From Escherichia coli (lineage in GTDB: Bacteria; Pseudomonadota; Gammaproteobacteria; Enterobacterales; Enterobacteriaceae): a stretch of DNA of 64,000 nt. How positions within the stretch are numbered: the stretch's first letter is position 1; the number at the start of each line of letters is the position of its first letter. The stretch lies in assembly GCF_030013595.1 (NCBI RefSeq), contig NZ_CP122768.1; one strand, written 5' to 3'. Below are positions 18,001 through 21,000 of the stretch, piece by piece. A program made the position numbers.

Positions 18001-21000
18001 TTTATGTCCATTATGTGGATTGTTGGCGGCGTCTATTTCTGGGTCTATCGTGAACGCCACTGGCCGTGGGGAGAAAACGCACCAGCCCCCCAGTTGAAAG
18101 ATAATCCGTCTATCTCCATTATCATTCCCTGTTTTAATGAGGAGAAAAACGTTGAGGAAACCATACACGCCGCTTTAGCACAGCGTTATGAGAACATTGA
18201 AGTTATTGCCGTAAATGACGGTTCAACAGACAAAACCCGTGCCATCCTGGATCGCATGGCTGCACAAATTCCCCACCTGCGGGTCATTCATCTGGCGCAA
18301 AACCAGGGGAAAGCCATTGCGCTTAAAACCGGAGCTGCCGCGGCGAAAAGTGAATATCTGGTGTGCATTGATGGCGATGCGTTATTAGACCGCGATGCGG
18401 CGGCATATATTGTGGAACCGATGTTGTACAACCCGCGTGTGGGTGCCGTAACCGGTAATCCTCGTATTCGAACACGTTCTACCCTGGTGGGTAAAATTCA
18501 GGTTGGCGAGTATTCCTCAATTATTGGTTTGATCAAGCGAACCCAGCGTATCTATGGAAACGTATTTACCGTTTCCGGTGTTATTGCCGCATTTCGTCGC
18601 AGCGCCCTGGCAGAAGTGGGTTACTGGAGTGACGATATGATCACCGAAGATATTGATATTAGCTGGAAGCTGCAGTTGAATCAGTGGGCGATTTTTTACG
18701 AGCCACGGGCGCTGTGCTGGATATTAATGCCTGAAACGTTAAAAGGGCTGTGGAAACAGCGCCTGCGCTGGGCTCAGGGCGGTGCAGAAGTATTCCTCAA
18801 AAATATGACAAGGTTGTGGCGCAAAGAAAACTTTCGAATGTGGCCGCTGTTTTTTGAATACTGCCTGACGACAATATGGGCCTTCACTTGCCTGGTCGGT
18901 TTCATTATTTACGCAGTCCAACTTGCCGGTGTACCGTTAAATATTGAATTGACACATATCGCTGCGACACATACTGCCGGAATATTATTGTGTACGTTAT
19001 GTTTACTGCAATTTATTGTCAGCCTGATGATCGAGAATCGCTATGAGCATAATCTGACTTCATCGCTTTTCTGGATTATTTGGTTCCCGGTTATTTTCTG
19101 GATGCTGAGTCTGGCAACGACATTGGTATCATTTACACGAGTCATGTTGATGCCTAAAAAGCAACGCGCCCGTTGGGTAAGTCCCGATCGCGGGATTCTG
19201 AGAGGTTAATATGAACAATTTAATTATTACGACCCGACAATCGCCAGTACGTTTAATGGTTGATTATGTTGCCACAACCATCTTATGGACATTATTTGCT
19301 TTGTTCATATTCTTATTCGCCATGGATCTGCTGACGGGTTATTACTGGCAAAGCGAGGCCAGAAGCCGACTTCAGTTCTATTTTTTGCTGGCAGTGGCAA
19401 ATGCCGTCGTGTTAATTGTCTGGGCGCTGTACAATAAGCTACGTTTTCAAAAACAGCAGCATCATGCAGCCTACCAATATACGCCGCAAGAATATGCTGA
19501 GAGCTTAGCAATACCTGATGAGCTCTATCAGCAACTACAAAAAAGCCACAGGATGAGCGTACACTTCACCAGCCAGGGGCAAATAAAAATGGTGGTTTCA
19601 GAAAAAGCGCTAGTCCGGGCGTAAACACCCAAATAAAGCCCGGTTCGCCCGGGCTCTGCGCCGATAATACACTTAACTGTATGCATGTAGCGTACGTTGG
19701 CAAAGTGCCGAACGTACGCAATCCTCTTTACCGAATCGGACGATCCCGACCATTTCATCTTCTTCGAAACGTTCCAGCGCGTCACTTAATCCGGAGCGCA
19801 CGCCGCGAGGCAAATCGCATTGCGTGATATCACCGTTGACGATAACCGTCACGTTCTCCCCGAGGCGGGTTAAAAACATTTTCATTTGCGCGGCAGTCAC
19901 ATTCTGCGCCTCGTCAAGAATGACGACTGCATTTTCAAAGGTACGTCCACGCATATAGGCGAACGGCGCAATTTCCACCTTCCCTATTTCCGGTCGCAGG
20001 CAGTACTGCATAAAGGAAGCCCCTAAGCGCCGGACCAGCACGTCGTAAACCGGGCGAAAATAGGGAGCAAACTTTTCTGCGATATCTCCAGGTAAGAAGC
20101 CAAGATCTTCATCGGCTTGCAGAACTGGACGGGTGACGATAATCCTGTCGACATCCTTATGTATCAGGGCCTCTGCCGCTTTTGCTGCGCTGATCCAGGT
20201 TTTTCCGCACTCGGCTTCGCCCGTGGCGAATATCAGCTGCTTACTCTCAATAGCCTTCAGATAGTGCAATTGCGCTTCATTTCGCGCGAGGATGGGCGAG
20301 GTATCGCGACTGTCGCGGGCCATACCAATGGCTTCTACGCCGCTCATCTGCACAAGCGAGGTGACCGATTCTTCTTCACGCTGCTTATGGCTGCGCGAAT
20401 CCCGTCTCAGCACACGTTTTGCCTCGCGACGAGCTTTGATCACTGCTTTTTGTCTTCCCATGGAGAGCACCTTGAGTTGTTTGTATTCATCACACGCGCC
20501 GTTGGCAGCGCGATTATGCGCACGAACATCAGAGGGTTGGCTTCCTTGTAAGCCATAGTTTGCTTTTGGATAAAAAGCCGAAAAACGGCTACGCGCACCG
20601 TTTACGGCGTCGGTAACACATGAAAAGAAAGGATGAGGTTGAAAATACAAAGTGACGAGATGACTACCGGAGGAGAAATCTCCGCGAGTGGTGGCGCGCT
20701 GATTATCTAAAACATGTCCAGTACAGGACGTTACCATCCGCGATCTCCATAGTGACTGACTATCACTGCCGGGAACTTCCGCTGCTACTTAATAATTACA
20801 ACAGAACTCGCATTCATTGCAACAATATATTAACTTATATTTAACGATAAACACCCATTTCGGTGACATTAGTTTCTACTGGAAAGATGACAGAGTGATG
20901 ACAGAGATGAAAAAAGCTGTGTGCTTTCAGCAGGATTCGCAGTACTGGTAAAAGCTTGCCGGATGCGGCGTGAACGCCTTACCCGACCTACAAGTGATTA

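What the first reader, a model, noticed from the sequence alone, without database searches (positions are those of the whole stretch)
20887..20904. Canonical Pho box approx 150 bp upstream of phoH
CTGTCATCACTCTGTCAT on the phoH strand is a near-perfect Pho box, with two 7-bp repeats separated by 4 bp. This supports PhoB control of phoH.
Basis: partly seen in the sequence, partly recalled or inferred. Interest (0 to 1): 0.2.

Follow-up and report, generated by a model that had tools for sequence, protein, structure and literature searches.

The report
Known PhoB-binding Pho box of phoH
This is the already-characterised binding site through which the phosphate-starvation regulator PhoB switches on the upstream promoter (P1) of the E. 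coli phoH gene; it is real and functional, but textbook.

Summary
The reverse complement of window 20887-20904 reads CTGTCATCACTCTGTCAT, two perfect 7-bp repeats 4 bp apart, on the phoH strand. It is not a chance match: about 5e-4 perfect matches are expected per window, and it scores 18.7 bits on a PhoB matrix, second of ~128,000 positions.

The window is E. coli, and the site is identical to the K-12 site under a published PhoB ChIP-seq peak. phoH RNA falls 2.8-fold in a phoB deletion.

The geometry is canonical. A weak -10 hexamer (GAAACT) starts 10 nt after the box, as in phoA, phoB and pstS, so the P1 start is predicted near 20864. The only experimentally mapped start I could retrieve (window 20786) is the constitutive P2, 101 nt downstream, which explains the modest fold-change. 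An ArcA repressor site lies between the box and P2.

The box plus -10 is identical in 96% of 5,426 E. coli genomes. A weaker version sits at the same position in 76 of 79 Enterobacteriaceae species.

"150 bp upstream of phoH" holds only for the K-12 354-aa start. The conserved 262-aa core starts 425 nt downstream of the box.

Verdict: supported, already known, low interest. Side note: the phoH leader carries a conserved open reading frame and an invariant hairpin that may merit study.

The parts
20887..20904 (-). Pho box CTGTCATCACTCTGTCAT, the binding site for a PhoB dimer. Half-site 1 is 20898-20904, the CACT spacer is 20894-20897, and half-site 2 is 20887-20893.
   Evidence: 18.7 bits. Identical to the K-12 site under the PhoB ChIP-seq peak.
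20871..20876 (-). Predicted P1 -10 hexamer GAAACT, starting 10 nt after the box. It is weak (3 of 6 matches, with A2 and T6 present).
   Evidence: the offset matches phoA TATAGT, phoB CATAAT and pstS TATTTT. A at position 2 is invariant and T at position 6 is at least 90% conserved across 32 Enterobacteriaceae sequences. Inferred, not mapped here.
20864..20864 (-). Predicted P1 transcription start (A, +/- 2 nt), 23 nt past the 3' end of the box.
   Evidence: Inference calibrated on phoB, whose measured TSS lies 23 nt after its box. The direct mapping (Kim et al. 1993) could not be retrieved.
20816..20869 (-). ArcA-P repressor site (four direct repeats), orthologous to K-12 ATGTCACTGAAATGG...TTGTTGCAAT. 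It spans roughly +1 to +50 of P1 and the -35 element of P2.
   Evidence: Park et al. 2013 supplements: DNase I footprint from -80 to -21 relative to P2, and 25-fold ArcA repression; the GTT, GTA and TGTTGC repeat cores are conserved across the family.
20817..20822 (-). P2 -35 element TTGCAA.
   Evidence: TTGC is invariant in 32 sequences. Its position fits the measured P2 TSS.
20793..20803 (-). P2 -10 region TGTTGTAATTA (K-12 TGTTGTACTTA).
   Evidence: TG-n-TGTA-n-TTA is nearly invariant. It ends 7 nt upstream of the measured TSS.
20786..20786 (-). P2 transcription start (A), constitutive, with a 49-nt 5'UTR to the ATG at 20737.
   Evidence: Kim et al. 2012 TSS table: U00096.2 1084166, 221 reads, upstream string ...TTGTTGTACTTATTAAGTA. 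Transferred to the window through the alignment.
20462..20737 (-). Leader ORF, which is the N-terminal 'extension' of the K-12 354-aa annotation. The ATG is at 20737-20735 and the Shine-Dalgarno GGAG at 20748-20745.
   Evidence: no codon periodicity, yet the frame stays open from a conserved SD+ATG in 79 of 80 species.
19673..20461 (-). Conserved PhoH core CDS (262 aa plus stop), the gene controlled by the box.
   Evidence: 91-100% identity in 80 species; strong codon periodicity.

Best explanation
The 18-bp element is the Pho box of the phosphate-starvation-inducible promoter P1 of E. coli phoH. Under phosphate limitation, phosphorylated PhoB binds head-to-tail as a dimer to the two TGTCA half-sites, which are spaced 11 bp apart. 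Because the box occupies the position of the missing -35 element, PhoB recruits sigma-70 RNA polymerase to a weak -10 hexamer (GAAACT, 20876..20871). Transcription then starts near 20864. A second, PhoB-independent promoter (P2, start at 20786) lies 78 nt further downstream and gives a high basal level, so PhoB adds only a few-fold induction. An ArcA-P site lies between the box and P2 and represses the locus anaerobically. Shown: the sequence itself; in-vivo PhoB occupancy and PhoB-dependent RNA and sigma-70 occupancy in K-12, which is identical at this site; the P2 start; and the ArcA footprint. Inferred: the exact P1 -10 hexamer and P1 start; PhoB recruiting polymerase by direct contact (by analogy with pstS); and ArcA blocking P1 as well as P2.
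For: Sequence and statistics. Locus identity. [quoted passage not shown] A phoH promoter reporter is strongly phosphate-inducible but leaky, and the authors cite one inducible and one constitutive promoter. Geometry: the -10 hexamer starts 10 nt after the box in phoA, phoB, pstS and phoH, and the measured phoB TSS is 23 nt after its box. Conservation: A2 and T6 of GAAACT and the TG..AT/TGT.AT repeat cores are conserved in 32 aligned sequences. The orthologous position scores at least 6.4 bits in 76 of 79 species and is the best hit within 700 bp in nearly all of them. The 34-nt box-to--10 stretch is identical in 5,233 of 5,426 E. coli genomes. P2 TSS. ArcA site.
Against: I could not retrieve a direct P1 start. 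Kim et al. 1993, Thomason 2015 and Valdespino-Diaz 2022 are not held, and the one TSS set that lists phoH shows only P2. That set also lacks E. coli phoA, pstS, phoE and ugpB starts, so the Pho regulon was off. The proposed -10 matches consensus at only 3 of 6 positions, and the consensus promoter scan found nothing in the region, although it also missed the measured P2. The spacer CACT is not A/T-rich. The fold-change in the phoB deletion is modest (2.8x). All functional data come from K-12, not from this strain.
Confidence: 0.93

Rival explanations
1. PhoB binds the site but it is transcriptionally inert, like most PhoB ChIP-seq sites. The phosphate response of phoH would then be indirect.
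For: Fitzgerald et al. found that most of the 65 PhoB-bound regions had no regulatory effect. phoH changes only 2.8-fold, and no sigma-70 difference was seen in the hns-deletion background.
Against: phoH is one of the 7 classic operons with both upstream binding and significant positive regulation, and sigma-70 occupancy at the site is more than 2-fold lower in the phoB deletion. The box sits in exact activator geometry relative to a conserved -10-like hexamer. The constitutive P2 accounts for the small fold-change.
Confidence: 0.03
2. The direct repeat is mainly a site for another OmpR/PhoB-family regulator (ArcA, for example). PhoB binding would be incidental cross-recognition.
For: In Enterobacter, Buttiauxella and Cedecea the orthologous repeat (TGTTA-N6-TGTAA) scores about 12.6-14 bits as an ArcA box, equal to or above its PhoB score. 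A genuine multi-repeat ArcA site lies immediately downstream.
Against: In E. coli the box scores -5.4 bits as an ArcA box against 18.7 bits as a PhoB site. The ArcA-P footprint starts downstream of the box (-80 relative to P2, which is about window 20866). PhoB occupancy is measured directly.
Confidence: 0.02
3. It is a chance match, or a by-product of the neighbouring REP repeat region, with no dedicated function.
For: The intergenic region just upstream is a polymorphic REP region. Two Escherichia lineages lack the upstream half-site.
Against: About 5e-4 perfect matches are expected per window (plus arithmetic). The position is conserved across 76 of 79 species while the flanks are only 49% identical. 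The stretch is identical in 96% of E. coli genomes. A ChIP-seq peak sits on it.
Confidence: 0.01

Closest known systems
phoH P1 Pho box of E. coli K-12 (Kim et al. 1993, J Bacteriol 175:1316; PhoB ChIP-seq site at 1084845 in Fitzgerald et al. 2023)
   Same: It is the same element. The 18-bp sequence and about 40 bp of flank on each side are identical, and so are the neighbours (efeB upstream, pgaD downstream).
   Different: Only the strain background differs. The REP region upstream of the box is arranged differently from K-12, and the downstream ArcA site carries about 6 substitutions.
pstS Pho boxes (TGTCATAAAACTGTCATA)
   Same: pstS and phoH are the only two ChIP-seq sites with two perfect TGTCAT hexamers. 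In both, the promoter-proximal box ends 10 nt before the -10 hexamer.
   Different: pstS has tandem boxes (PWM hits at registers 0, +11 and +22), A/T-rich spacers, no constitutive second promoter and about 770-fold PhoB dependence. phoH has a single box, a CACT spacer and 2.8-fold dependence.
phoA and phoB promoters (single Pho box, 10 nt, then -10)
   Same: Both have a single 18-bp box in place of the -35 element, with 10-nt spacing to the -10. The measured phoB TSS lies 23 nt after its box.
   Different: Their -10 hexamers are near consensus (TATAGT and CATAAT, 5 of 6), whereas phoH has GAAACT (3 of 6). They also lack a strong downstream constitutive promoter.
ugp operon with its two interspaced promoters (Kasahara et al. 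1991, cited)
   Same: One gene is served by a PhoB-dependent promoter and a second, PhoB-independent promoter.
   Different: By my recollection the second ugp promoter depends on cAMP-CRP. phoH P2 is constitutive and repressed by ArcA.
ArcA box (direct repeats TGTTA-N6-TGTTA, Park et al. 2013)
   Same: It has the same 11-bp direct-repeat architecture and belongs to the same regulator family. The orthologous phoH repeats in several genera score as ArcA boxes.
   Different: The E. coli box has C at the discriminating position (TGTCA rather than TGTTA) and scores -5.4 bits as an ArcA box.

Membership tests
Pho box (PhoB binding site) | Two 7-bp direct repeats close to CTGTCAT, centre-to-centre spacing 11 bp, separated by 4 bp | tested here: met
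   all 14 specified positions match. The spacer is CACT, less A/T-rich than the textbook consensus.
Pho box (PhoB binding site) | High score against a matrix built from experimentally bound PhoB sites | tested here: met
   18.7 bits with the site itself left out. This is above the 75th percentile of the 59 ChIP sites (16.8 bits) and second of ~128,000 window positions.
Pho box (PhoB binding site) | PhoB occupancy in vivo or in vitro | not testable with these tools
   From the literature only: a ChIP-seq peak at 1084845 with score 11 on the identical K-12 sequence. DNase footprinting in Kim et al. 1993 is my recollection; the paper is not held.
PhoB-activated (Pho regulon) promoter | Box on the gene strand in place of the -35 element, ending 10 nt upstream of the -10 hexamer | tested here: met
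   GAAACT starts 10 nt after the box, the same offset as phoA, phoB and pstS; its A2 and T6 are conserved. TGTCAT at the -35 position matches TTGACA at only 1 of 6 positions.
PhoB-activated (Pho regulon) promoter | A mapped, PhoB-dependent transcription start about 23 nt downstream of the box | tested here: inconclusive
   The only TSS retrieved is P2 at window 20786, from conditions in which phoA, pstS, phoE and ugpB starts were also absent. The P1 mapping (Kim 1993) is not held. The existence of an inducible plus a constitutive promoter is confirmed second-hand.
PhoB-activated (Pho regulon) promoter | Expression depends on PhoB and is induced by phosphate limitation | not testable with these tools
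   From the literature: RNA is 2.8-fold lower in the phoB deletion and sigma-70 occupancy more than 2-fold lower. phoH is up 5.95-fold in a pst mutant. A reporter is induced on phosphate depletion.
PhoB-activated (Pho regulon) promoter | The site is conserved at the orthologous position in related species | tested here: met
   76 of 79 species score at least 6.4 bits and 61 of 79 at least 10 bits at 410-430 nt upstream of the core ATG. The site is strongest in Escherichia and has been lost in E. albertii and Escherichia sp. MOD1-EC7003.
ArcA box | Direct repeats matching TGTTA-N6-TGTTA | tested here: not met
   the E. coli box scores -5.4 bits on a matrix built from 114 ArcA boxes. The real ArcA site is the adjacent 20816-20869 element.

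The most novel reading that the evidence does not exclude
PhoB control at this box may be only the first layer of phoH regulation. Transcripts from P1 and P2 carry a roughly 275-nt leader with a Shine-Dalgarno sequence and ATG conserved in 79 of 80 Enterobacteriaceae species. The reading frame from that ATG stays stop-free for 84-98 codons or more, whether it fuses in frame to the PhoH core (55 species, including K-12's '354-aa PhoH') or runs out of frame and ends 22 nt past or 23 nt before the core ATG (24 species). The peptide sequence shows no codon-level constraint. The leader also holds an invariant hairpin presenting ACAAGGA in its loop, a CsrA-type motif. The novel reading is that translation of this leader ORF, rather than its product, is needed for PhoH expression, through coupling or protection from termination. 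The K-12 long isoform would then be a lineage-variable by-product, toggled by a 1-nt change in a T-run.
Probability: 0.3. Interest if true: 0.45.

Novelty: already known. Interest (0 to 1): 0.1.

Why it matters
The finding itself matters little. It rediscovers from raw sequence a binding site that was mapped in 1993 and confirmed by ChIP-seq in 2023. Its main value is as a positive control showing that the first-stage reader can recognise real regulatory sites. The re-analysis adds some context. The box serves only the upstream of two promoters. The E. coli version is the sharpest of a family-wide, positionally conserved but degenerate repeat. The annotated start codon used to state the distance is questionable. 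The leader-ORF observation would matter more if it holds up, because PhoH is a widespread ATPase of unknown function whose start codon is annotated inconsistently.

Tried and rejected
1. Retrieving the primary promoter mapping failed. Kim et al. 1993 (PMC193217 / PMID 8444794), Thomason et al. 2015, Valdespino-Diaz et al. 2022 and Yuan et al. 2006 are not held.

2. Searches for a P1 start in other genome-wide TSS supplements found nothing. Cappable-seq was searched by coordinate, Conway 2014 has no supplements held, and Mendoza-Vargas 2009 has no phoH entry.

3. A full-text search for the exact box sequence returned only the Fitzgerald paper. Searching 'phoHp', 'phoHp1', 'phoH P1' and 'phoH promoter' returned mostly unrelated papers; the relevant hits were the ArcA paper and a bioRxiv preprint testing the phoH promoter as a reporter. 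Yang et al. 2012 (ChIP-chip) does not mention phoH in its main text.

4. The consensus sigma-70 scan found no promoter in 20400-21200. I do not count this as evidence against P1, because the scan also missed the experimentally measured P2.

5. Rfam showed only a sub-threshold REP-like hit (naRNA4) and noise in 20300-21200, so there is no known RNA family in the leader.

6. CsrA link: the text-held supplements of the E. coli CsrA CLIP-seq paper do not list phoH, and no open-access paper linking the two was evident. The CsrA idea therefore remains an unsupported lead.

7. The whole-leader fold is not more stable than shuffled sequence (z = -1.1).

8. I considered that the box acts on P2 and rejected it, because the box centre lies about 110 nt upstream of the P2 start.
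Full report
**1. The observation**

The + strand at 20887-20904 reads ATGACAGAGTGATGACAG. Its reverse complement is CTGTCAT-CACT-CTGTCAT, two perfect 7-bp direct repeats separated by 4 bp, on the minus strand. 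The 354-codon phoH ORF (19673-20737) is on the same strand.

This is the only perfect CTGTCAT-N4-CTGTCAT in the window. With up to 2 mismatches there are 2 hits, against 0.31 expected from dinucleotide shuffles. A perfect match on 14 fixed positions is expected about 4.8e-4 times per 64-kb window on both strands (my arithmetic).

I built a weight matrix from the 58 other PhoB ChIP-seq sites in Fitzgerald et al. 2023. On it the site scores 18.7 bits, against a background mean of -24.8 and sd of 9.9. It ranks second of ~128,000 positions. The only higher hit, at 40096-40113, is the published agp PhoB site, which was in the training set.

**2. Where we are**

The window is E. coli, 99.9% identical to strain HCP5S3_I2, in reverse orientation relative to K-12. 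The gene order is pgaC, pgaD (+), then phoH, efeB, efeO (-).

In MG1655 the same 18-mer lies at 1084825-1084842. The box and about 40 bp on each side are identical between the window and K-12. Divergence begins upstream, in a REP-containing stretch.

**3. What is known about this site**

- Fitzgerald et al. 2023 (PMC10294691) list a PhoB ChIP-seq peak centred at 1084845 with motif TGTCATCACTCTGTCATC and ChIP score 11. Only pstS (38), ugpB (35), phoA (20) and phoE (14) score higher, and phoB ties at 11.
- In the same study phoH RNA is 37,076 in wild type and 13,375 in the phoB deletion (significant). Sigma-70 occupancy at the site is more than 2-fold lower in the deletion.
- Only pstS and phoH have two perfect TGTCAT hexamers.
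- phoH is up 5.95-fold in an APEC pst mutant, in which the Pho regulon is constitutively on.
- A phoH promoter-GFP reporter is strongly induced by phosphate depletion but leaky. Its authors attribute this to one inducible and one constitutive promoter.
- Park et al. 2013 (PMC3798270) number their phoH fragment relative to 'P2' of Kim et al. 1993 and refer to a second promoter.
- The primary paper (Kim et al. 1993, PMC193217) is not held. My recollection of its abstract is as follows. P1 is upstream, carries the pho box, shows a PhoB footprint, and is phoB-dependent and phosphate-limitation-inducible. P2 is downstream, phoB-independent and constitutive. This is memory, not a tool result.

**4. 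Anatomy of the promoter region** (minus strand, window coordinates)

*(a) Box and P1.* I fetched the classic Pho promoters from MG1655. In them the -10 hexamer starts exactly 10 nt after the box: phoA TATAGT, phoB CATAAT, and pstS TATTTT after its proximal box. In phoH the hexamer at that offset is GAAACT (20876..20871). It is weak (3 of 6) but has the critical A2 and T6.

In an alignment of 32 Enterobacteriaceae promoter regions with only 49% mean column identity, that A is invariant and that T is at least 90% conserved. The repeat cores (T79, G80, A83, T84, T90, G91, T92, A94, T95) are also conserved.

The Kim et al. 2012 TSS table gives the phoB start as the 7th nt after CATAAT, which is 23 nt past the box. 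Applying the same rule to phoH predicts a P1 start at A20864 (+/- 2). The -35 position is occupied by TGTCAT, which matches TTGACA at 1 of 6 positions. This is the usual reason such promoters depend on PhoB.

*(b) ArcA site.* Immediately downstream, 20869..20816 is the orthologue of the four-repeat ArcA-P site of K-12. Its DNase footprint runs from -80 to -21 relative to P2, and ArcA represses phoH 25-fold. The GTT, GTA and TGTTGC repeat cores are conserved across the family.

*(c) P2.* The table of Kim et al. 2012 lists one phoH TSS: U00096.2 1084166, 221 reads, 49-nt 5'UTR, upstream string ...TTGTTGCAATAAATGCGAGATCTGTTGTACTTATTAAGTA. This maps to window 20786. It is preceded by TTGCAA (20822..20817) and TGTTGTAATTA (20803..20793), both nearly invariant across genera. 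It agrees with the P2 numbering used for the ArcA footprint to within a few nt.

P2 starts 101 nt downstream of the box, so the box cannot act as its -35 substitute. In that TSS set E. coli phoA, pstS, phoE and ugpB have no entries and phoB has only 18 reads. The Pho regulon was therefore off, and the absence of P1 is expected.

**5. Conservation**

*Within E. coli.* The 34-nt stretch from the box through GAAACT is 100% identical in 5,233 of 5,426 complete genomes.

*Across species.* A scan of one genome per species with the PhoH core returned 80 Enterobacteriaceae loci. The best match to the box consensus on the gene strand lies 410-430 nt upstream of the conserved core ATG in almost all of them. 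The PhoB matrix scores at least 6.4 bits (the weakest ChIP-validated site) in 76 of 79 species and at least 10 bits in 61 of 79.

Perfect boxes occur only in Escherichia. Citrobacter has CTGAAATAATTCTGTCAT (about 16.5 bits), Enterobacter has CTGTTATATTTCTGTAAT (13.1 bits), and the Salmonella subspecies score 10.9-12.6 bits. This agrees with the statement by Fitzgerald et al. that the phoH site is conserved 'to a lesser degree'. It also agrees with a review's summary that Salmonella phoH is controlled by HilD independently of PhoBR.

In Enterobacter, Buttiauxella and Cedecea the same register scores 12.6-14.1 bits as an ArcA box. The E. coli box scores -5.4 bits. The ancestral repeat may therefore be ambiguous between the two regulators.

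Two Escherichia lineages have lost the upstream half-site. E. albertii looks like an exact 11-bp (one-repeat) deletion relative to E. coli SCPM-O-B-8794. Escherichia sp. MOD1-EC7003 has unrelated sequence up to the second repeat.

**6. Mechanism and rivals**

The best explanation (confidence 0.93) is that PhoB~P binds the box and recruits sigma-70 RNA polymerase to P1. The constitutive P2 adds basal expression, and ArcA-P represses.

- An inert PhoB site is unlikely, given the PhoB-dependent RNA and sigma-70 signals and the exact activator geometry.
- ArcA as the main ligand is excluded for E. coli by the matrix score and the footprint boundary.
- Chance is excluded by the statistics, the conservation and the ChIP peak.

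**7. The distance claim**

'About 150 bp upstream of phoH' is correct for the K-12 start (149 nt to the ATG at 20737). PGAP starts phoH at 20461 (262 aa) in the closest strain, and the Klebsiella orthologue is 789 nt long.

Across 80 species the core shows strong codon periodicity, with entropy at codon positions 1/2/3 of 0.10/0.06/0.83. The 92-codon 'extension' shows none: 0.85/0.80/0.83 overall and 0.81/0.79/0.81 in the 55 in-frame species. Twenty-four species have length differences that are not multiples of 3. The conserved protein therefore starts 425 nt from the box.

**8. Side finding**

- The upstream ATG and its Shine-Dalgarno sequence (GGAGATCGCGrATG) are conserved in 79 of 80 species.
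- The frame from that ATG has no stop codon in 75 of 79 species, while the other two frames average about 3-7 stops.
- In 55 species this frame runs into the core. In 20 it is out of frame, 97-98 codons long, and ends 22 nt past the core ATG. In 4 it is 84 codons long and ends 23 nt before the core ATG.
- The frameshift maps to the T-runs of a terminator-like hairpin (20590..20566). Both states occur within Escherichia.
- An essentially invariant block 76-90 nt upstream of the core ATG forms the hairpin GGCUU-ACAAGG-AAGCC (20555..20538), with a GGA motif in its loop. It resembles the CsrA SELEX consensus as I recall it.
- The text-held CsrA CLIP-seq supplements do not list phoH.

This suggests a translated leader whose translation, not its peptide, is under selection. 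I did not test this further.

**9. Verdict**

The element is already known and is a good positive control for the scan. Interest is low (0.1). The leader ORF and hairpin are the only possibly new things seen.

Noticed in passing
window 20462-20737 (- strand); loci L003-L082: The 92-codon N-terminal 'extension' of K-12 PhoH shows no codon periodicity across 80 species. Yet its SD+ATG is conserved in 79 of 80, and the frame from that ATG has no stop in 75 of 79. It is fused to the core in 55 species. In 24 it is a separate 84-98-codon ORF ending 22 nt past or 23 nt before the core ATG. It looks like a translated leader ORF, and the 354-aa versus 262-aa annotation conflict follows from it.
   Followed up: partly
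window 20538-20555 (- strand): An essentially invariant block (entropy 0.06 across 80 species) forms the hairpin UGGCUU-ACAAGG-AAGCCA, with ACAAGGA exposed in the loop. It lies about 77-94 nt upstream of the core ATG and resembles a CsrA binding site. phoH is not listed in the text-held CsrA CLIP-seq supplements.
   Followed up: partly
window 20566-20590 (- strand): A terminator-like hairpin (AGCCGTTTTTCGGCT followed by a T-run) lies inside the leader ORF. The 1-nt indel that switches species, and E. coli strains such as E69, between 'fused' and 'unfused' states maps to these T-runs (nt 152-157 of the leader ORF).
   Followed up: partly
window 40096-40113 (- strand): AGTCATATTTCTGTCACA is the top PhoB-matrix hit in the window (19.5 bits). 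It is the published ChIP-seq PhoB site upstream of agp (MG1655 1065537, H-NS-bound; agp RNA 976 in wild type against 1,983 in the phoB deletion).
   Followed up: partly
L008 (E. albertii) and L004 (Escherichia sp. MOD1-EC7003), about 425-445 nt upstream of the core ATG: Both have lost the upstream half-site of the box (2.6-3.6 bits). E. albertii looks like a clean 11-bp one-repeat deletion relative to E. coli SCPM-O-B-8794 (L005). In MOD1-EC7003 the homology breaks exactly at the second repeat.
   Followed up: partly
loci L014-L029, L040-L041, L055, L071 and others, orthologous box position: In Enterobacter, Buttiauxella and Cedecea the orthologous repeat (for example TTGTTATATTTCTGTAAT) scores as well or better as an ArcA box (12.6-14.1 bits) than as a PhoB site (8.7-13.1 bits). 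Many genera also have a third in-phase repeat (TGTCAG or TGTAAG), which has degenerated to CCAGTAG in E. coli.
   Followed up: partly
window 20762-20783 (- strand): The block AGCGG(A/T)AGTTCCCGGCAGTGAT, immediately downstream of the P2 start, is highly conserved in nearly all 32 aligned species. Its function is unknown (5' end of the P2 mRNA).
   Followed up: no
window 20929-21045: The stretch holds a REP-type palindrome (sub-threshold Rfam naRNA4 hit at 20954-20988, E = 5e-4) and an efeB-proximal hairpin (about 21010-21040). This part of the efeB-phoH spacer is arranged differently in K-12, which explains why the 701-bp region is only 90-95% identical in half of E. coli genomes.
   Followed up: no
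window 5733-5750 (+ strand): CTGTCATTTCACTCACAT is the only other hit with up to 2 mismatches to the Pho box pattern. It does not appear among the top PhoB-matrix hits and was not examined.
   Followed up: no
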